This document shows, in pieces, positions 1,003 through 57,141 of a DNA stretch of 64,000 bases. Each line of letters begins with the position of its first letter. The first letter of the stretch is position 1. Both the position numbers and the translations under genes were made by a program. Below the pieces are notes generated by a model. The model worked only from the letters and a program-made list of their open reading frames with translations, was not told the origin of the DNA and did not search any database. Source of the stretch: Eledone cirrhosa (Eukaryota); NCBI GenBank assembly GCA_964016885.1, contig OZ024765.1, positions 12,896,001 through 12,960,000 on the forward strand, given 5' to 3'.

Positions 1003-2449
1003 GGGGTCGTCAAGTATGATATTTGTAGAAAACAAACGAATTTCTTCAAATTTCATACTTGACGATCCAATATATATATATACATATTTATATGTATATG
1101 TGTGTTTCTTTAGTTGAATGTGTATGTGTGTGAGTTAGCTTGTATATGTATGTTTATGTATATGTTTGGTTATTTTGCCAAAGGCTTGAGTATGTGTATG
1201 TGTGTGTTAACATGTATATGTATGTTTGTGTATACATTCTGCCACCGAAGGCTTCAGTAACTATATGTGTGTGTGTGTACATGTATTTGAATATGAACAT
1301 GAGTGTATGTGTGCCTGTGTTTGTAGTTGAATGCAAATGTGTGTATGCATATGTATTTGTGTGTATATGTATATGTATATTTGTATAGACTTTTGGTTGT
1401 GCCACCGAAGGCTTGAGTAAGTATGTGTGTCTGTGTGTGTATATGTGGTATGTATGTATCTTTGAATGTTAATATGCACTTATATATGCGTGTAGGTGTA
1501 TTTGAATGTGTATATGTGCAAGTATATGTGTGTATTTGAATATGTGTGTACGTGTATGTTTAGGTATGTGTGAGTCTGCATTTATGTAACTCAATTCAAG
1601 TAAGTTAATTGGGTAAAAACCTGAGATGTCTTTGTGTGTACATATAAATATGTATTTATATGTTTATATATATGTATATATATATGTATATATATATATA
1701 TATGTCTATATATATATGATATGTATATGTATGTGTATGTATGTATGTAATGTATGTGTGTGTGTATATATATATCTATATAAATATATCTATATATCTA
1801 TATATATAGTGTAGGTATCATGACAAAAAGCACCCAGTACTCACTGTAAATGAGGTTGGTGCTAGGAAGGGCATCCAGCTGTAGAAACTAAGCCAAAAAT
1901 CAGTTCTGTATGAGCAAGACATGGTCACCTGACTTAGCATTGCCACAACAGGCCAACTCGTCTAACCCATGCTAGCTTGGACATAAAACAGTGATGATAT
2001 ATACACACACATATATATATATATATATAGATAGGTAAATATACACGGGTGTGTATGATTGTGTATAGAAGATTATATTAATAAGAGGAATTCCAACTTT
2101 GTCTGATTTACTCGTTTTATTTACAATCCTTTAAATATATATATATACACATGTACAGGGTTGATGAAATATAGTACCAGTAATACACTGGGATAATTGC
2201 TGGCCTTGTGCCAAAAGTAGAAACAATTATTCATATCCTTCTATGACTTTCTCTCCCTCTCTTTTCTCTTTTTACCTACAGTCTAATCTGGCATTGGTAG
2301 ACTGTCCCTTCACATCTGTTATAGCTGCCCCTACTATTTTCTCTTCCTGTTATTTTCCCTTCACCTGTGATCACAGAAGCTGGCATGACATGCTCTCTCA
2401 CCTATCAAGCATTAGTCTAATTTCCTTACAACATTATCTTAGAGACTCC

Positions 2450-2682
2450 TTACGGGGTCGATAAAATAAAGTACCAGTAATGAACTGGGTAATTGCTGGC
2501 CTTGTGCCTAAAGTAGAAACAATTATCTTAGAGGCTCTTGGGTGGATAGAGGCAGTGGATTGACAGTACCCGTAGAGGGTCGGACGCCATGCTTTGATGC
2601 ATAGAGTTACGGCCCTTGCCATTCTGAGTTCAAATCCCGCCGAGGTTAACTTTGCCTTTCATCCTAACGTAGAAACAATTAT
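2450..2682 (+). mobile_element. Meta-domain-like tRNA SINE (family M): a 3' fragment followed by an internally deleted copy
   Basis: Head GTGGATTGaCAGTA..GTAGAGGGTCGGACGCCATGC, B box GAGTTCAAATC, GCCTTTCATCCT, tail GTAGAAACAATTA. Matches the full copies at 44845 and 63216. Confidence 0.8.
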
Positions 2683-3474
2683 CATAGAGACTCTTATCAT
2701 TTCTGTCTTCAGTTGAAAGACATTTAAATGTAATAAATTCTCAGTTGTGAAAATCTGCTGTCCCCTCTTCGCCACCCCACTCCCAGAATTCGTTTTCGCA
2801 GGGGTGGGGGTGGGGGGTGGATTGTGAACATGTCAGAGGTCAAATTAGTTGAAAAAAACACACACTAAAAAAAATATTTCTTAGCGATCCCCAGTGGACA
2901 CTTTTCTATAAATTTAATTGATTGAGAGGTGCTTATCTGTAACTCCAAGGGTCCCCTCTGGTCCCATGTCCATTTCAAGGGAAAATGGAGTCATTTGTGA
3001 GTGAGTTGGATGTCAGATCAGTTGAAAACAAACCTAAAACCTAGAAAAAAAAAAGAAAATCCCATCAAAGAAAATTCATTACTCCAAAGACCCTTTGGAG
3101 AACCCCCATTTCGGCCGCTTGTATTTGTGATCCTATTCTTTCAGTCATTACCCAAGATTAATGACCATAGTTAAGGGTTGGCACGAAAACTGAATTGAAG
3201 ACAATGTGGGAGTTTGTCAATTCAGATAAAATAAAAAAATGTTCATCTTACTCTTTTACATGCCATGTTGTCATACTTCTCCCCTCCCTTCCATGGAGGT
3301 AGTTCATAGCTATGCCAACCACTCCTCTCCATATGGCTGGCAGTTCTATTTTTAAAGAGCAGAAACTCTATCCAAGCCTTGTATAACAGCTGATGACAGT
3401 GATCTACTGTGTCTGATGTCTTTCTTTACATTGTCTGGGGGTGCATTTCTTGCATGTTTGTGTGTGTGTGTATA

Positions 3475-3812
3475 TCATCATCATCATCATCATCATCATA
3501 CGTCCACTTTTCCCTGCTTGCAAGGGTGGGACGGGAACTGATTCTGGCTTGATTTCTACAGCTGGATGCCCTTCCTAACACCAACCTCATTTACAGTGAG
3601 TGCTGGGTGCTTTTTTCCTGTGGCACCTCCACGACCACTTTACAGTGGAATGATAGGGACCCCAGTCCTATCATCTCATTTCTACAGCTGAGTAAACTAG
3701 AGCAATGTGAAATAAAGTGTCTTGCTCAAGGAAACAACACATCACCCGGTCTGAAAATTGAACTCACAACCTTTCGATTGCAAGGCCAATGCTCTAACCA
3801 CTAACCCATGTG
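3475..3812 (-). mobile_element. tRNA-derived SINE family A (V/CORE-like middle, RTE-derived 3' part)
   Basis: Reverse complement of the 16741 and 20093 copies, with A and B boxes and a (GAT)n tail. Confidence 0.9.
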
Positions 3813-3908
3813 ATATATATATATATATATATATGACTATCCAAGGAAAACTTGAACCGTTAAGGTAGATTCTCCTTGGTTATGTCAAAATTTATAAAAC
3901 ACACTTCG

Positions 3909-3970
3909 TATTTTATCTGATGAAAGCGTACAAAAATCTTTGGTACCCTTGAAATATATATAATAGAATG
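3909..3970 (+). ncRNA. Minimal type I hammerhead ribozyme
   Basis: Stem I TATTTTAT/ATAGAATG; CTGATGA; stem II AAGcGTAC/GTACcCTT; GAAA; palindromic stem III TATATA followed by TA. Confidence 0.75.
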
Positions 3971-4014
3971 AATATGGTTTTATAAATATAGTTTCCATTT
4001 ATTTAATATCATTG

Positions 4015-4047
<33 letters not shown>

Positions 4048-4049
<2 letters not shown>

Positions 4050-4240
4050 GAAAAAGTATGACCCCGACGGCAGAGCTCAAGCCGTTTCGACGGCTATTTC
4101 AGTCCAGAAATAGCCGTCGAAACGGCTTGAGCTCTGCTGTCGGGGTCATACTTTTTCCTATTTCCTACTCTACTACCCTAAGTATTGAGTACTCTGGTGC
4201 GTTATGGTCCATCTGGTTTCTTACAACAATTCCTTTGTTA
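4048..4240 (+). mobile_element. Fold-back element (53-bp arms, 4048-4159) plus conserved tail; Penelope-like terminal repeat family P1
   Basis: Inverted repeat around the loop AGTCCA, containing AGCCGTC-GAAAC. Tail TATTGAGTACTCTGGTGCG..TTGTTA then (TA)n. Other copies at 14120, 21134 and 57421. Confidence 0.6.
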
Positions 4241-14119: not shown

Positions 14120-14256
14120 TTTAGGGTAGTAGAGTGGGAAATAGGAAAAAGTATGACCCCGACTGCAGAGCTCAAGCCGTTTCGACGGCTATTTCTGGAC
14201 TGAAATAGCCGTCGAAACGGCTTGAGCTCTGCCGTCGGGGTCATACTTTTTCCTAT
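14120..14256 (-). mobile_element. Fold-back element family P1
   Basis: 58-bp arms at 14141-14256 around TGGACT, the reverse complement of the loop at 4101-4106. Confidence 0.65.
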
Positions 14257-17652: not shown

Positions 17653-17753
17653 CACTGAGGAGGTCATAGAATGTGTGACAAAAGAGCTTTGACAATATAT
17701 TAAAAAAAAACATCCGGTTATCGAAAAGAGTTCCAAGTTAAAAGAGTTCCAAG

Positions 17754-17824
17754 TATTTTATTATGCACATTTCAAAAACAAATATCATCATGCGATAACA
17801 TTTGCGTTTTCGTCAGATAAAATA
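17754..17824 (-). ncRNA. Type I hammerhead ribozyme (inverted duplicate of 20885-20955)
   Basis: Reverse complement reads TATTTTAT-CTGACGA-stem II-GAAA-TGTGCA-TA-ATAAAATA. Confidence 0.75.
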
Positions 17825-17966
17825 GGGAGACATGATATGAAGGTTAAAACACACTTGTGAATAGTGCAGTTTTAAATCAACATATATGTTGATTTAAAAC
17901 TGCACTATTCACAAGTGTGTTTTAACCTTCATATCATGTATCCCTATTTTATCTGATGAAAACGCA
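17803..17966. repeat. Near-perfect palindrome with 82-bp arms
   Basis: Centre CATATATG at 17881-17888. Confidence 0.95.
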
Positions 17967-18998
17967 GATATCTTTTAACCATCTTTTGATCTTATATATT
18001 ATATATATATACTACCAAAATTAAATTAAAGATGCCAACGTCTGAGAAGATCAGAATCATGCACCATACCACCTGTAGAATAGGCTCATATAGGACTGTT
18101 TCTGGCTAGATATCTACAGCTGGATACCCTTCCTAATGCCAACCACATTTACAGTGTGTGCTGGATCTTTATATATATATATACACACACACACATATAT
18201 ATACATATTTATACACACACACATATATATATATATACGTATACGTGTATATATATATCTATAGCCAGAAACAGTCCTATACGAGCAAGACATGGTCACC
18301 CGACCAAACTTGCCTCAAATGGCACAAACCCATCTAACCCATGCTAGCGTGGAAGATAGACGTTAAATGATGATGATGATATATATATATGTATATATGT
18401 ATGTATATATGTATATATGTATATATATATGTATATATGTGTGTATATATCTATATATATCTATATACACACACACATACATAATTTACATTATATTATA
18501 GTGTCAAGAGTTTTCATAGAATAGAACAAAAGAGCATTCTATGTTAAGTGCATAACTAAAATATATTTTAAATAAATTCTCAGCATAGTTGCTTAATAGC
18601 CAAGGATTCAAAGCCTACTCTCTCATAGGCCCTATATATATATATATATATATAGATATATATATATATCTATATATATATATCTCTATATATATATATA
18701 TATCGTTTCTGAATTTGTTTAGCAAGATTCTTTATCTGAAATCGTGTGTTGAAACTGATATTGTTAACAAAGGAGAGGCACAGAAACAAAGAAAGGAATC
18801 CCCAGTCACTGAAGAGGTCACAGAGTGTGTGACGAAAGAACTATGACTATATATAAACAACTATCTGGTTGTGGAACCAACCAACCAACCAGAAATTTAT
18901 AAATTTGTAAATTTATAAATTTATAAATATATAATAAATTGAAGTGAAAGCAACTGGTGCGTGTGTTTCTTATTGGCAACATGACCCTCCCAAAGTAT

Positions 18999-19147: not shown

Positions 19148-19192
<45 letters not shown>

Positions 19193-19240
19193 TATAGATA
19201 GGTAAATATACACGGGTGTGTATGATTGTGTATAGAAGAT

Positions 19241-19635
19241 TATATTAATAAGAGGAATTCCAACTTTGTCTGATTTACTCGTTTTATTTACAATCCTTTA
19301 AAATATATATAATGGTATTATAATGAAAAAGTATGATAGAATATTAAATTCTAAGTGTTAATTGAACAAGTACTTTCATGCTTTCGCAATCTTCAGGTTC
19401 ATGATATGTGGTGACAGTCGAGTTTGCAATTTTCAACTGTTGAAAATTGCAAACTCGACTGTCACCACATATCATGAACCTGAAGATTGCGAAAGCATGA
19501 AAGTACTTGTTCAATTAACACTTAGAATTTAATATTCTATCATACTTTTTCATTATAATACCATTATATATATTTTAAAGGATTGTAAATAAAACGAGTA
19601 AATCAGACAAAGTTGGAATTCCTCTTATTAATATA
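19241..19635. repeat. Perfect palindrome with 197-bp arms and a 1-nt spacer
   Basis: Centre TTCAAC-T-GTTGAA at 19438, flanked by (TA)n. Confidence 0.96.
19475..19513 (+). ncRNA. Minimal hammerhead ribozyme (mirror copy on the minus strand at 19363-19401)
   Basis: TGAAC-CTGAAGA-tTGC-GAAA-GCAt-GAAA-GTAC-TT-GTTCA: 5-bp stem I, GNRA-capped stem II, palindromic stem III AAGTACTT. Confidence 0.75.
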
Positions 19636-19683
19636 TATATATATATATGTATATATATTATATATATATATTATATATATATG

Positions 19684-19742
<59 letters not shown>

Positions 19743-20417: not shown

Positions 20418-20683
20418 ATATATATGTGTGTGTGTGTGTATAAATATGTATATATGTGTGTATATATATATATATATGTGTGTGTGTATAAATATGTATA
20501 TATATGTGTGTGTATATATATATATAAAGATCCAGCACACACTGTAAATGTGGTTGGCATTAGGAAGGGTATCCAGCTGTAGATATCTAGCCAGAAACAG
20601 TCCTATATGAGCCTATTCTACAGGTGATATGGTGCATGATTCTGATCTTCTCAGACATGGCATCTTTAATTTAATTTTGGTAG

Positions 20684-20716
<33 letters not shown>

Positions 20717-20884
20717 AGATCAAAAGATGGTTAAAAGATATCTGCGTTTTCATCAGATAAAATAGGGATACATGATATGAAAGTTAAAACACACTTGTGA
20801 ATAGTGCAGTTTTAAATCAACATATATGTTGATTTAAAACTGCACTATTCACAAGTGTGTTTTAACCTTCATATCATGTCTCCC

Positions 20885-20955
20885 TATTTTATCTGACGAA
20901 AACGCAAATGTTATCGCATGATGATATTTGTTTTTGAAATGTGCATAATAAAATA
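20885..20955 (+). ncRNA. Type I hammerhead ribozyme overlapping the palindrome at 20743-20906
   Basis: Perfect 8-bp stem I TATTTTAT/ATAAAATA; CTGACGA; long stem II GCAAATGTTATC/GATGATATTTGT; GAAA; TGTGCA-TA. Confidence 0.8.
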
Positions 20956-21079
20956 CTTGGAACTCTTTTAACCATCTTTTGATCTTATATTATTTATACT
21001 CCAGTCCTACAAACTGTAGAGTGCTTCTTATCCGATATCTGCATTGCTTTATTGTACTACAATAAAACTCACCTCCTAC

Positions 21080-23059: not shown

Positions 23060-23428
23060 TACAATATTAAATAAATGGAAACTATATTTATAAAACCATA
23101 TTTATTTCATTATATATATTTCAGGGATATCATATTAACAATATGCTATGCCTTCCTCAGACAAAATACAATATAAACAGTTTTATAGATAAATAGATTT
23201 GACATACCGTAACAACATCGACTTGTATTTGAAAAGTTGAATTGACTGCCAATTCAACTTTTCAAATACAAGTCGATGTTGTTACGGTATGTCAAATCTA
23301 TTTATCTATAAAACTGTTTATATTGTATTTTGTCTGAGGAAGGCATAGCATATTGTTAATATGATATCCCTGAAATATATATAATGAAATAAATATGGTT
23401 TTATAAATATAGTTTCCATTTATTTAAT

Positions 23429-23434
<6 letters not shown>
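23060..23434. repeat. Perfect palindrome with 185-bp arms and a 5-nt loop
   Basis: Centre AATTG-ACTGC-CAATT at 23247. Confidence 0.96.
23326..23391 (+). ncRNA. Type I hammerhead ribozyme (mirror copy on the minus strand at 23103-23168)
   Basis: TATTTTGT-CTGAGGA-AGGcATAgCATATT..AATATGaTATcCCT-GAAA-TATATA-TA-ATGAAATA. Same family as 3909 and 39214. Confidence 0.75.
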
Positions 23435-53371: not shown

Positions 53372-56300
53372 AAATCATAAGCCAGAGCCCCCCCCCCGCA
53401 TCACCACCATTATTATAAGCCAGAGCCCCCCCCCACCCCCACGCATCACCATTATTATTATTACGCGGACCAAATCATAAGCCAGAGGCCTATACTATCG
53501 CTTGCCCGGTTGCCTTCGATATATGATGGATGGATGGATGGACGGACGGACTGCGGAATCCTGGAGAGTGGAAGGGAGAGAAAAATCTGGACGCCCAGAG
53601 CGAAAATGCCAAAGTTAAAGTCAAATTCACCTCGTGGACGAGAATGCGAGCACTCCTCTTTGTTTCGTCCGCGGATGGCTAACATAACCCTATCTCCTCC
53701 CGCCCCCCACCACCCCCACCCTCCAAACGCAACCCAAAACTTCAGAGTTGGTACCATAAATGTAGGCACCCTAAAGGGTCGCGCTAACGAGGTTGTAGAA
53801 ATGCTTGAACGTAAGGAGGTCGATGTTTGTTGTATTCAAGAGACCAGGTGGAGGGGTGGGTCTGCTAAATTCATTGAGGGTAAAAAACGATGTTATAAGC
53901 TTTTCTGGGTGGGAAACGACGATGGGCTGGGTGGAGTAGGAATCATGGTAGCAGAAAAGTGGGCAGATAAGATAATAGACGTAAATAGAGTGAACGACAG
54001 AATAATTAAAATAAGACTTGTCCTCAATAGAACTACGGTGACAGTAATATCTGCGTACGCACCCCAATCCGGACTGCCCGGCACTATAAAAGACAGATTC
54101 TATGAGACACTGTTGCTAACTACCTCCCAAATATCTGACAGTGACTATATAATTATTGCAGGCGACCTAAATGGTCACGTTGGACAACATTGTGACGGCT
54201 ATGACGAAATCCATGGAGGCTATGGGTTTGGTACTAGAAATGAGGAAGGCTCCAGAATTCTGGAATACTGTGATGCAAATAACCTAACTATCTGTAACAC
54301 TAACTTCAAAAAACGTGACAATCACCTGATTACCTATAGATCCGGGGAACACACAAGCCAGGTAGATTATATCCTTACCAGAAGACGTGACAGAGTGTCT
54401 GTTGTAAACACTAAATCCCTCCCCCATGAAGAATGCACCTCCCAACATAGACTGATAATTAGCGACCTCATAGTCAGGACGAGACGCACCCGACAGCAGA
54501 AGAGGACTATCCTCAGGAGGAAAATATGGAAACTAAAGGACCCCACAGCCAGAAATAAATTTCAAAGCATATTACTTGATGCTTTCGACAGTAAGGAAGA
54601 GCATCTAGAATCGGACAATATAGAGGGACAGTGGAAATTTCTGAAAGCAAACCTGCTGTTGGCGACAGACGAAGTCTGTGGCTGGAGCAGGCCTGTAGGC
54701 AGGAGGAGAGTAACATGGTGGTGGAACAATAGGGTGGAGGGGTCAATTAAGGCCAAAAAGCAGGCTTGGAAAGTATGGCGGGATGGGGGAAGTAGAGTAG
54801 ACTATCAAGTGGCCAGGAGGGAAGCTAGGAGAGAAGTGTACTTAGCAAGAAGGGAAGCTGAGGAAAGAAAGTTCAAGCATGTTCTACAACGCGATGACCA
54901 AAAACGTGAGGTGTTCAGGATTGCCAGGCAATGCGTCAAGGAAAACCGTGATATTGTCGGGGAGAAGTGTGTACTTAACGATGATGGCATACTTGCCATC
55001 ACCGACACTGATAAGAAGGTAGCTTGGAAGTGTCACTATGAAAGGCTACTAAATGAGGAGAATAAATGGGAGAAAGACAGTCTCCCCCTTATCGACCCGA
55101 TAGAGGGACCAGCAGTGTTAGTCGAGGGGAGTATAATAAGTAAGGCAATCAAGGATATGAAGACTGGTAAGGCGGCTGGGCCTTCGGAAATAGTTGCTGA
55201 GATGCTGAAGGCATCTGGCACGGTGGGACACACCATGGTCACCCGCATAGTTAACCAAGTCGTACAGAATGGGGTTGTTCCGAAGGACTGGCATAGCAGC
55301 ATCATCGTTAACTGTTATAAGGGTAAAGGAGACGCCCTAGATAGGAGTAACTATAGAGGCATTAAATTAATCGACCAGGTCATGAAGGTCACGGAAAAAG
55401 TAATAGCGCAACTAATCAGAGAGAGAATTGATCTAGATGAAATGCAGTTCGGGTTTGTGTCAGGCAAAAGCACCACAGACGCTCTTTTCATAGTACGACA
55501 ACTACAGGAGAAGTACCTAGCTAAAGGTAAACCCCTCTACTTAGCTTTTGTCGACCTGGAGAAAGCCTTCGACAGAGTCCCCCGCTCCATTATCTGGTGG
55601 GCTCTTAGAAAACTAGGCGTTGACGAATGGCTTGTGAGGGCTATACAAGCCATGTATAAAGAAACAGTCAGCAAGGTTAGAATTAACAACGAATATAGTG
55701 AAGAGTTTAGCGTAAAAGTTGGCGTCCATCAGGGCTCTGTTCTCAGCCCCCTACTATTTATTATTGCCCTTCAGGCTATAACAGAGGAGTTCAAGACAGG
55801 CTGCCCATGGGAACTCCTATACGCAGACGACCTGACACTCATAGCGGAATCAATGGCCGAGCTAGAGAAGAAATTCCAAACATGGAAGCACGGCCTAGAG
55901 TCAAAAGGACTTAAAATTAACCTGGCTAAGACCAAAGTTCTAGTTTGTAGGAAAGAAAACAAGGCGGCGGTCCCTTCTGGGAAATGGTCGTGCTCGGTAT
56001 GTAGGAAAGGCGTAGGTAGAAACTCCATCTTATGTCCTAAATGCAAAGTATGGGTGCATAAAAGATGTAGTGGGATCACAGGTAAGCTAACTAAGAACAT
56101 AGACTTTACATGTGGCCGGTGTTCTGGTGCAATAAGTAGCAGCAAGTGCCCACAAAATACTAGCTCTTTCAATTGCGCAGAGGGTTCTATAGAAATAGTG
56201 GACAGCTTCCGTTACCTGGGCGATAAAATCAGCAGTGGGGGAGGGTGCTCTGAAAGTACTGTAGCTAGAGTCAGAACTGGTTGGAAAAAGTTCAGAGAGC

Positions 56301-57141
56301 TTATACCACTATTAGCTGCTAAAGGGTTCTCCCTAAAAATGAAAGGCAGGTTGTACGATGCCTGCATACGAACAGCAATGTTGCATGGTAGTGAGACCTG
56401 GGCATTGTGTGCAGAGGATATACGCAGACTAGAGAGGAACGAAGCTTGCATGCTCCGCTGGATGTGTAACAGTAATATACGTGAACGGCAAAGCATAAAC
56501 GAACTAAGGAAAAAATTAGAGATAAGAGGGATCAGATGTTGTTTACTCGAGAGAAGGCTGCGTTGGTATGGACACGTGATGCGCATGAAAGTCGATAGCT
56601 GTATTACAAAGTGCAGGGCAATAAAGATAGACGGTAGCCACGGAATAGGCAGACCTAGAAAAACATGGGATGAGCTGATAAACTCCGACCTCACACACTT
56701 ACACCTTTCCAAGACAATGTCACTGGACCGTGACCTTTGGCGGTACTCAGTAACAGAGAAGACCCGCCTTGCCAGTAGGCATCTCTAACAAAATACACCC
56801 CTCCCGCCGCCACCCCCACCCCATCCACACCACCCCGTTCTATGTAAAGTTATGTTGGTGCCGCGCCATCCAGGCCGAAACAAATGAGATCGTGTAGGTG
56901 TCACGACAAAAAAACACACAGTCCACGCTGTAATGTGGCCGTGTAGGCAACACGGTAAAAACCTCCCAGACCCACACTGTAAATGTGGTTGGTGTTAGGA
57001 AGGGCATCCAACTGTAGAAAACCTGCCAGACAGTCCTATGCGAGCAAGACAATCACTCTTGCCTCAAGTGGGACTACCCCCGTCCAAACCCATGCAAGCG
57101 TGGAACACGGACGTTAAACGTTGATGATGATGATGATGATG
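53372..57141 (+). mobile_element. Apparently intact RTE-clade LINE (RTE-A) inserted in (TA)n
   Basis: Single long ORF, about 350-bp 3'UTR, (GAT)n tail, TA tracts on both sides. Confidence 0.93.
53510..56788 (+). CDS. RTE retrotransposon protein: APE endonuclease, reverse transcriptase and PHD-type finger (first in-frame ATG at 53534)
   Basis: Endonuclease motifs GTINVGTL, IQETRW, SAYAPQ, AGDLNGH, QVDYIL, SQHRL. RT motifs YRGIKL, QFGF, FVDLEKAFD, GVHQGSVLSP, YADD (55820-55831), FRYLG. C-terminal RLRWYGHV and GRPRKTW. No stop codons. Confidence 0.96.
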   Translation: MPSIYDGWMDGRTDCGILESGRERKIWTPRAKMPKLKSNSPRGRECEHSSLFRPRMANITLSPPAPHHPHPPNATQNFRVGTINVGTLKGRANEVVEMLERKEVDVCCIQETRWRGGSAKFIEGKKRCYKLFWVGNDDGLGGVGIMVAEKWADKIIDVNRVNDRIIKIRLVLNRTTVTVISAYAPQSGLPGTIKDRFYETLLLTTSQISDSDYIIIAGDLNGHVGQHCDGYDEIHGGYGFGTRNEEGSRILEYCDANNLTICNTNFKKRDNHLITYRSGEHTSQVDYILTRRRDRVSVVNTKSLPHEECTSQHRLIISDLIVRTRRTRQQKRTILRRKIWKLKDPTARNKFQSILLDAFDSKEEHLESDNIEGQWKFLKANLLLATDEVCGWSRPVGRRRVTWWWNNRVEGSIKAKKQAWKVWRDGGSRVDYQVARREARREVYLARREAEERKFKHVLQRDDQKREVFRIARQCVKENRDIVGEKCVLNDDGILAITDTDKKVAWKCHYERLLNEENKWEKDSLPLIDPIEGPAVLVEGSIISKAIKDMKTGKAAGPSEIVAEMLKASGTVGHTMVTRIVNQVVQNGVVPKDWHSSIIVNCYKGKGDALDRSNYRGIKLIDQVMKVTEKVIAQLIRERIDLDEMQFGFVSGKSTTDALFIVRQLQEKYLAKGKPLYLAFVDLEKAFDRVPRSIIWWALRKLGVDEWLVRAIQAMYKETVSKVRINNEYSEEFSVKVGVHQGSVLSPLLFIIALQAITEEFKTGCPWELLYADDLTLIAESMAELEKKFQTWKHGLESKGLKINLAKTKVLVCRKENKAAVPSGKWSCSVCRKGVGRNSILCPKCKVWVHKRCSGITGKLTKNIDFTCGRCSGAISSSKCPQNTSSFNCAEGSIEIVDSFRYLGDKISSGGGCSESTVARVRTGWKKFRELIPLLAAKGFSLKMKGRLYDACIRTAMLHGSETWALCAEDIRRLERNEACMLRWMCNSNIRERQSINELRKKLEIRGIRCCLLERRLRWYGHVMRMKVDSCITKCRAIKIDGSHGIGRPRKTWDELINSDLTHLHLSKTMSLDRDLWRYSVTEKTRLASRHL

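What the first reader, a model, noticed from the sequence alone, without database searches (positions are those of the whole stretch)
19241..19635. 395-bp perfect palindrome that places a hammerhead on each strand
Seen: 197-bp arms with a 1-nt spacer, and a hammerhead at 19475-19513 (+) mirrored at 19363-19401 (-). A transcript from either direction carries the same ribozyme in its 3' arm plus its own antisense in the 5' arm. Inference: the RNA can either self-cleave or fold into about 200 bp of dsRNA, a potential ADAR or Dicer substrate in a lineage known for heavy A-to-I editing. Spacerless palindromes this long are normally unstable, so this one is probably young.
Basis: partly seen in the sequence, partly recalled or inferred. 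Interest (0 to 1): 0.75.

Follow-up and report, generated by a model that had tools for sequence, protein, structure and literature searches.

The report
Two-ended Penelope retrotransposon insertion palindrome
This perfect palindrome is one of at least 582 with the same centre in this animal genome, each made of two head-to-head pieces of a Penelope-like jumping gene; the centre likely marks the element's transcription start, which suggests the RNA was copied onto both ends of one DNA cut, while the ribozyme it carries is predicted to be unable to fold inside the hairpin.

Summary
The palindrome is real (197+1+197 nt, no mismatch) and both hammerhead motifs are present, but it is not a one-off switch. 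The arm is the pseudo-LTR of a Neptune-type Penelope-like element: copies run into an RT + GIY-YIG ORF, the hammerhead core occurs 6,005 times and this exact apex at 582 loci. It sits in (TA)n with a tail on one arm only, the published PLE inverted-insertion layout. Further signs: 36 of 37 classifiable pairs join a tailed to an untailed arm; the apex lies 31 nt below a TATA box (18 of 20 longer arms); 20 of 20 one-base spacers are G:C, as a copied cap would give; a minority of 5' ends cluster at the hammerhead cut. Best reading: two cDNAs of a capped sense RNA, primed at both sides of one cut and joined at ACAGT. In the palindrome the hammerhead stems have P~1e-48 and stem III needs a dimer, so 'cleave or dsRNA' fails; read-through would give only a hairpin. 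The copy lacks the upstream promoter. The scan proposed two-ended priming before, on retrozyme arrays elsewhere in this genome. No RNA was tested.

The parts
19180..19240 (-). PLE 'tail', present on one arm only; its last ~10 nt are the element's own TA run and cannot be told from the target (TA)n
   Evidence: 37-nt tail recurs in 55 of 128 arms with the same 3' BLAST end; it matches the source element through 19180
19241..19437 (-). Tail-bearing arm: pLTR from the likely transcription start to the tail
   Evidence: the same sequence is continuous with an RT+GIY-YIG ORF in L031-L034, L122, L123
19436..19440 (.). Apex ACWGT: self-complementary first 5 nt of the likely capped RNA, shared by both arms
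   Evidence: 582 loci; 53 of 128 arms start here; TATA 31 nt upstream in 18 of 20 longer arms; 20 of 20 one-base spacers G:C
19439..19635 (+). Untailed arm, ending at TAATATA next to (TA)n
   Evidence: 45 of 128 arms end at this point; 34 of these 45 are followed by TATATATA
19475..19513 (+). Minimal type-I hammerhead, dimer type (stem III AAGUACUU self-complementary); predicted cut 19508|19509
   Evidence: 6,005 exact 27-nt cores in the genome
19363..19401 (-). Mirror copy of the hammerhead; predicted cut 19368|19367
19151..19190 (.). Left (TA)n target microsatellite
19631..19739 (.). Right (TA)n target microsatellite

Best explanation
The palindrome is a young, promoter-less insertion of two head-to-head pseudo-LTR pieces of a Neptune-type Penelope-like retrotransposon in a (TA)n repeat, likely made when both ends of one cut primed reverse transcription of the element's sense RNA. 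Shown: family identity, copy numbers, two fixed 3' ends (with and without tail), a fixed 5' end at the apex, TATA spacing, junction bases. Inferred: the GIY-YIG cuts both strands of (TA)n; each 3' end anneals to one of two TA-rich stretches of the RNA (about +200 and +250); RT runs to the capped 5' end; the two cDNA ends (ACTGT) anneal with one T.T mismatch and are repaired. The hammerhead serves the parent RNA (likely cut as a dimer; some copies begin at the cut) and is a passenger here. If the locus is read through, the RNA is predicted to be a simple hairpin open to ADAR or Dicer, not a ribozyme switch.
For: PLE identity: RVT_1 and GIY-YIG Pfam hits directly upstream of the arm; CX4CxxC linker and CCHH-type motif read from the translations, as described for Neptune in PMC8557442 (passages). 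Layout equals the published inverted 5'-truncated copy with a one-sided tail (PMC8557442, PMC3846280 passages). 36 of 37 classifiable pairs are tail + no-tail (P 3e-10 at 50%); the one exception is the inner end of a giant palindrome whose outer ends also follow the rule. In 6 of the 36 the untailed arm reaches further 5', which a single fold-back cannot give. Centre base is A in 6 and T in 6 relative to the tail. A purified PLE protein nicks and extends both strands from two RT start sites that bound the tail (PMC11167929, parts 1-2 of 4 read). TATA at -31 in 18 of 20; one-base spacers G:C in 20 of 20 although the parent has T there; next base beside (TA)n C 12, T 0 of 67 listed loci (hand tally). 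5' ends at arm 70-72: 14 of 30 listed loci against about 0.9 per nt downstream (hand tallies). Hammerhead stems P~1e-48 in the palindrome; rare changes equal inside and outside the hammerhead (12.3 vs 12.5 per 1000, 67 arms).
Against: No RNA data: start site, cap and cleavage are inferred from DNA ends. The extra C could be templated from an internal ACTGTCAC (arm 20-27); many junctions show templated inserts. Asymmetric arms and the 6:6 centre could also come from later central deletions or spacer flipping. Paired arms are closer than unpaired ones (2.3% vs 5.7%; 13 rare alleles on both arms), as a fold-back or gene conversion also predicts; only about 3 of 28 pairs look like two templates. 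Microhomology peaks of 5-6 loci occur at other positions, so the cut-site excess is about twofold over those. G is the commonest non-A next base beside (TA)n (19 of 67); I ascribe it to TG-containing flanks without a test. The hammerhead lacks the G10.1-C11.1 pair. This locus itself was not bridged by any listed contig.
Confidence: 0.72

Rival explanations
1. Same PLE insertion, but made by self-priming or fold-back of one nucleic acid (the antisense-template model of Arkhipova et al. 2013) and later reshaped by deletions and conversion.
For: Proposed in PMC3846280 (passages). Arms of a locus are usually nearest relatives. Many apexes are perfect palindromes.
Against: Does not explain two fixed 3' ends paired as tail + no-tail in 36 of 37 pairs, untailed arms longer in 6, mixed subfamily alleles in L012, L058 and L025, or an apex at TATA+31 with a G:C spacer.
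Confidence: 0.17
2. A non-autonomous palindromic element (MITE-like or retrozyme-like) that spreads as a whole unit from one or a few masters.
For: 582 loci share the exact apex.
Against: The centre base is split 6:6 relative to the tail; the apex is shared across subfamilies whose arms track the autonomous element; junctions vary continuously among the 50 listed of 973 loci; solo arms start at the same base.
Confidence: 0.05
3. One reading: a functional RNA that switches between self-cleavage and dsRNA and feeds ADAR or Dicer.
For: The hairpin is certain if transcribed. Penelope copies in lizard and palindromic repeats in frog are hyper-edited, and octopus has unusually many near-perfect dsRNA loci (PMC5625713 passages).
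Against: The hammerhead cannot compete (68 kcal/mol penalty); the copy has no upstream promoter; no host exon was recognised nearby in a crude frame scan; inserted hammerheads decay at the background rate; there is no A>G excess on the sense strand (14 A>G vs 19 T>C, P 0.16).
Confidence: 0.03
4. Fold-back sequencing or assembly artefact at this locus.
For: No listed contig spans the whole stretch; raw long reads were not available.
Against: The flanks differ; the inversion ends exactly at the family's fixed 3' end; the tail is on one side only; hundreds of loci share the apex and many have diverged arms.
Confidence: 0.03

Closest known systems
Inverted pLTR insertions of EN+ Penelope-like elements, Neptune type (Craig et al. 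2021, PMC8557442; Arkhipova et al. 2013, PMC3846280; passages read)
   Same: RT + C-terminal GIY-YIG with CX2-5CxxC linker, hammerhead in the pLTR, inverted 5'-truncated copy head to head, tail at one end only, (TA)n target.
   Different: Here both copies are cut down to the pLTR, so the whole insertion is a palindrome; the apex is fixed and recurs at 582 loci; the tail is about 60 nt when its simple-repeat end is counted; the parent has an extra upstream ORF overlapping the RT frame.
Minimal hammerheads of metazoan PLEs (Cervera and de la Pena 2014, PMC4209133; parts 1-2 of 4 read)
   Same: Type I, short helix I, palindromic helix III that needs a dimer; the paper already reports pairs 100-700 bp apart on opposite strands in Schistosoma and no monomer cleavage.
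   Different: Helix II is short (3 bp) and lacks G10.1-C11.1.
Anolis Poseidon PAc in vitro (Frangieh et al. 2024, PMC11167929; parts 1-2 of 4 read)
   Same: Both strands cut and extended; two internal RT start sites that bound the tail; AT-rich target.
   Different: PAc starts at a site not homologous to the target and showed no RNA ends at the hammerhead cut; here both starts are TA-rich like the target and some genomic 5' ends fall at the cut.
Animal non-LTR retrozymes (bioRxiv 10.64898/2026.07.22.740005; part 1 of 5 read)
   Same: pLTR-related, hammerhead-bearing, non-coding.
   Different: Retrozymes are head-to-tail tandems with two or more sense hammerheads; this locus has one per strand and a near-identical autonomous parent.

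Membership tests
EN+ Penelope-like element | RT with C-terminal GIY-YIG in one frame, linked to this repeat | tested here: met
   775-codon frame with RVT_1 (E 2.9e-6, 27.6 bits, just under the 29.6 cut-off) and GIY-YIG (E 3.3e-6, above cut-off), ending ~340 nt before a pLTR 99.5% identical to the arm; RVT_1 above cut-off in L034
EN+ Penelope-like element | pLTR at both ends of a full-length copy | tested here: met
   L122/L123: partial 5' pLTR with tail, ORFs, 3' pLTR
EN+ Penelope-like element | Inverted 5'-truncated copy and one-sided tail | tested here: met
   36 of 37 classifiable pairs
EN+ Penelope-like element | Single ORF | tested here: inconclusive
   RT and EN share one frame, but a 449-codon ORF overlaps it upstream in another frame in both halves of one locus; L034 reads through that point in the RT frame
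Neptune clade | CX2-5CxxC linker plus CCHH motif | tested here: met
   CNDNRCGTC linker, CPNC and two later His in the EN translation
Neptune clade | Placement in an RT tree with reference PLEs | not tested
   No named reference set was fetched; Nematis is not excluded
Minimal type-I hammerhead | Core CUGANGA, GAAA, UH with stems I and II | tested here: met
   core columns 94-98 of 98 arms (31 of these arms came from loci picked by the core pattern)
Minimal type-I hammerhead | Palindromic helix III allowing a dimer | tested here: met
   AAGUACUU self-duplex -6.6 kcal/mol
Minimal type-I hammerhead | G10.1-C11.1 pair | tested here: not met
   U.U at this place; no Rfam match
Minimal type-I hammerhead | Self-cleavage | not testable with these tools
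   Only indirect: genomic 5' ends at the predicted cut
Non-LTR retrozyme | Head-to-tail tandem with at least two sense hammerheads | tested here: not met
   One hammerhead per strand, head to head

The most novel reading that the evidence does not exclude
Penelope-type inverted repeats are made by double-ended target-primed reverse transcription of capped sense RNA. The hundreds of identical palindrome apexes are fossil transcription starts with a copied cap base, the hammerhead cut is a second, in vivo 5' end, and this recently active family mass-produces ready-made dsRNA hairpins that may feed hyper-editing. This would replace the antisense self-priming model.
Probability: 0.5. Interest if true: 0.7.

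Novelty: new member of a known kind. Interest (0 to 1): 0.48.

Why it matters
The locus itself is ordinary for this genome. The family matters because how PLEs form their inverted repeats, and whether their minimal hammerheads cut in vivo, are stated as open in the papers read (PMC8557442, PMC11167929, PMC4209133). This family offers thousands of dated insertions with sharp end signatures and near-identical full-length copies with uninterrupted frames, so both questions become testable by CAGE and an in vitro or cell assay. It also gives a concrete source for abundant near-perfect dsRNA in such genomes.

Tried and rejected
Rfam gave no hammerhead hit; only low-scoring miRNA-hairpin matches lie over the apex. 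Run search: no RNA holder listed, which is no evidence either way. Logan contigs of three runs show the family in many variants, but no listed piece spans the stretch, and the Hi-C raw reads of another organism gave 0, so locus-level confirmation stays open. No Atlas result was obtained for the RT. Editing footprint in template RNA: no A>G excess. Hammerhead cut as the cause of this apex: rejected, the apex is 70 nt upstream of the cut, and only 10 loci have both arms starting near the cut. Covariation test not run: the family is too uniform. Paper searches found no account of two-ended priming or cap signatures for PLEs, none on hammerhead PLEs in octopus beyond a mention, and none on frameshifting in Neptune. 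The library lacks most subscription papers, and no supplements were read; the family lists of PMC8557442 may already name this element.

Full report
Observation. The palindrome is as described: 197-nt arms, 100% complementary, one central base. A descriptor scan finds the hammerhead-like motif on both strands, among 13 hits in the window. Rfam does not recognise it (none in the 150 of 286 rows shown). Stem I has 5 bp, stem II 3 bp with U.U in place of G10.1-C11.1, and stem III only 2 bp with a 2-nt loop; its AAGUACUU self-pairs at -6.6 kcal/mol. This is the dimer-type minimal hammerhead described for metazoan Penelope-like elements (PLEs) in PMC4209133, which also reports opposite-strand pairs and no monomer cleavage.

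What it is. The arm is a dispersed repeat in the 3.0-Gb own genome: 58 matches from 40 scored candidates, 6,005 exact 27-nt hammerhead cores and 7,091 exact matches of a downstream 29-mer. The exact 25-nt apex occurs at 582 loci, and 973 loci have head-to-head cores 70-100 nt apart. Four loci, extended, run upstream into broken RT and GIY-YIG frames. Another locus, about 8.6 kb, is a palindrome of two full-length copies 99.9% identical to each other; each has an uninterrupted 775-codon RT-EN frame and a 3' pLTR 99.2-99.5% identical to the window arm. The EN has the CX4CxxC linker and CCHH-type residues, which fits Neptune (PMC8557442 passages); no tree was made. Named RT relatives are from bivalves; my impression that the host is an octopod is recalled, not tested. 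An inverted truncated copy, a tail at one end and a (TA)n target are the published PLE layout.

Ends. In 128 distinct arms from 105 fetched loci, 3' ends fall at arm position 234 (55) or 197 (45), and 53 5' ends fall at -2, the apex. Many of these loci were picked by similarity or by the apex. In the 30 arms picked by a downstream pattern, 12 start at -4 to +5, 9 further upstream, and 9 between 28 and 114. Of 49 listed head-to-head pairs (one locus twice), 12 had an arm broken before its 3' end and were set aside; 36 of the other 37 join a tailed to an untailed arm. The exception is the inner end of the giant palindrome, whose outer ends again are tailed and untailed. The untailed arm reaches further 5' in 6 pairs, the tailed arm in 8, and 22 are level. 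The tail in the window matches the source through 19180, ending in the element's own TA run; the untailed end is TAATATA. Both could pair with a cut (TA)n (inference). A purified PLE protein cuts and extends both strands from two internal start sites that bound the tail (PMC11167929).

The apex. A TATAWA box lies 31 nt above the apex in 18 of 20 longer arms, with 2-3 CCAAT words within 200 nt. Where both arms are complete and 0-3 bases lie between them (27 loci), 20 have one base and all 20 are G:C, while the parent has T there. Beside (TA)n the next base is A 36, G 19, C 12, T 0 in the 67 loci I could count from the first 100 of 434 rows (hand tally). A copied cap explains the C; templating from an internal ACTGTCAC is an alternative. 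The first five bases, ACAGT, are self-complementary around one mismatch, and the centre base is A in 6 and T in 6 of 12 loci relative to the tail. I infer that the apex is the transcription start and that two cDNA ends annealed there. The window copy therefore lacks the upstream promoter.

Template. In 28 pairs, arms differ by 2.3% on average against 5.7% between loci; 13 rare alleles lie on both arms and 64 on one; about three loci carry mixed subfamily alleles. So arms mostly come from the same or a closely related RNA. A fold-back or later conversion predicts this too, and it is the main reason the mechanism is not rated higher.

The hammerhead. Alone or in one arm, stems I+II have P 0.46 and 0.16; in the palindrome 8e-49, and 3e-48 when the RNA ends just after the motif. 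Rare changes are as frequent inside it as outside (12.3 vs 12.5 per 1000 in 67 arms not picked by the core), while subfamily-level changes avoid it (1 of 18 such columns, P 0.045). That pattern means selection in the master lineage and none after insertion. Among arms whose 5' end abuts (TA)n, 14 of 30 listed loci start at 70-72, the predicted cut being before 71, and 8 start upstream. The background downstream is 27 loci over 29 nt, with microhomology peaks of 5-6 (hand tallies of partial listings with different anchors; two of the 14 look like local duplicates). One arm of the giant palindrome also starts at 70-71. This suggests that some parent RNAs are cut in vivo; it is not proof.

The dsRNA is certain if the locus is read through, and editing of such repeats has precedent (PMC5625713 passages). 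A switch is not supported. No A>G excess is seen in the arms. Youth is supported by identity, not by instability, since arms diverged by up to 7% persist. An artefact is unlikely but not excluded for this locus.

Verdict. A new member of a known kind. What remains of value is the family's end signatures, which bear on an open step in PLE transposition. Earlier notes of this scan proposed two-ended priming for retrozyme arrays in this genome; I saw them after reaching the PLE reading and the two-ends pattern. The start-site and cap evidence was not found in earlier notes or in the papers searched.

Noticed in passing
window 23060-23434 (tail to about 22975): Second hammerhead palindrome (185-nt arms, 5-nt spacer) of another family, with at least 42 identical arms elsewhere, a longer tail on one side only, and PLE-like RT thumb and EN frames in L110 (no Pfam hit for the EN piece). 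Same tail/no-tail pattern.
   Followed up: partly
L122/L123 = G000:C1:21872017-21880699: About 8.6-kb palindrome of two full-length copies (99.9% identical) with uninterrupted frames, joined at or near the hammerhead cut; a candidate source subfamily of the window copy.
   Followed up: partly
L123:500-1927 and 1837-4161: The parent has a 449-codon upstream ORF (no Pfam hit) overlapping the RT-EN frame in the -1 frame, with U UUU UUA in the right register in 3 of 4 long copies (two are halves of one locus). The downstream structure is weak (-5.8 kcal/mol), and an in-frame TGA just upstream is TTA in L034. Possible programmed frameshift in an EN+ PLE; untested.
   Followed up: partly
window 17737-18257 and 20439-20972: Inverted pair flanking the whole neighbourhood (275 nt at 100%, 218 nt at 91%), each side holding an 85-nt-arm palindrome.
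   Followed up: no
window 3917, 18809, 23753, 38797(-), 39083, 39223, 39669(-): Further hammerhead-like motifs of other families, several with TATATA stem III; small palindromes at 4070-4137, 14165-14232, 39033-39136.
   Followed up: no
window 53381-56785 (+): 1,135-codon open frame with AP endonuclease, RT and PHD finger: a non-LTR retrotransposon with an apparently intact frame.
   Followed up: partly
L015, L017, L022, L026: Four loci share a second junction in which one arm starts at position 109, at a TTTTCA/TGAAAA microhomology with the other arm's 5' end. The A/T variant at 109 is also the commonest difference between paired arms (7 of 28).
   Followed up: no
G000:C21:2464915 onward: Tandem array of an about 52-nt piece of this pLTR joined to TA repeats.
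   Followed up: no
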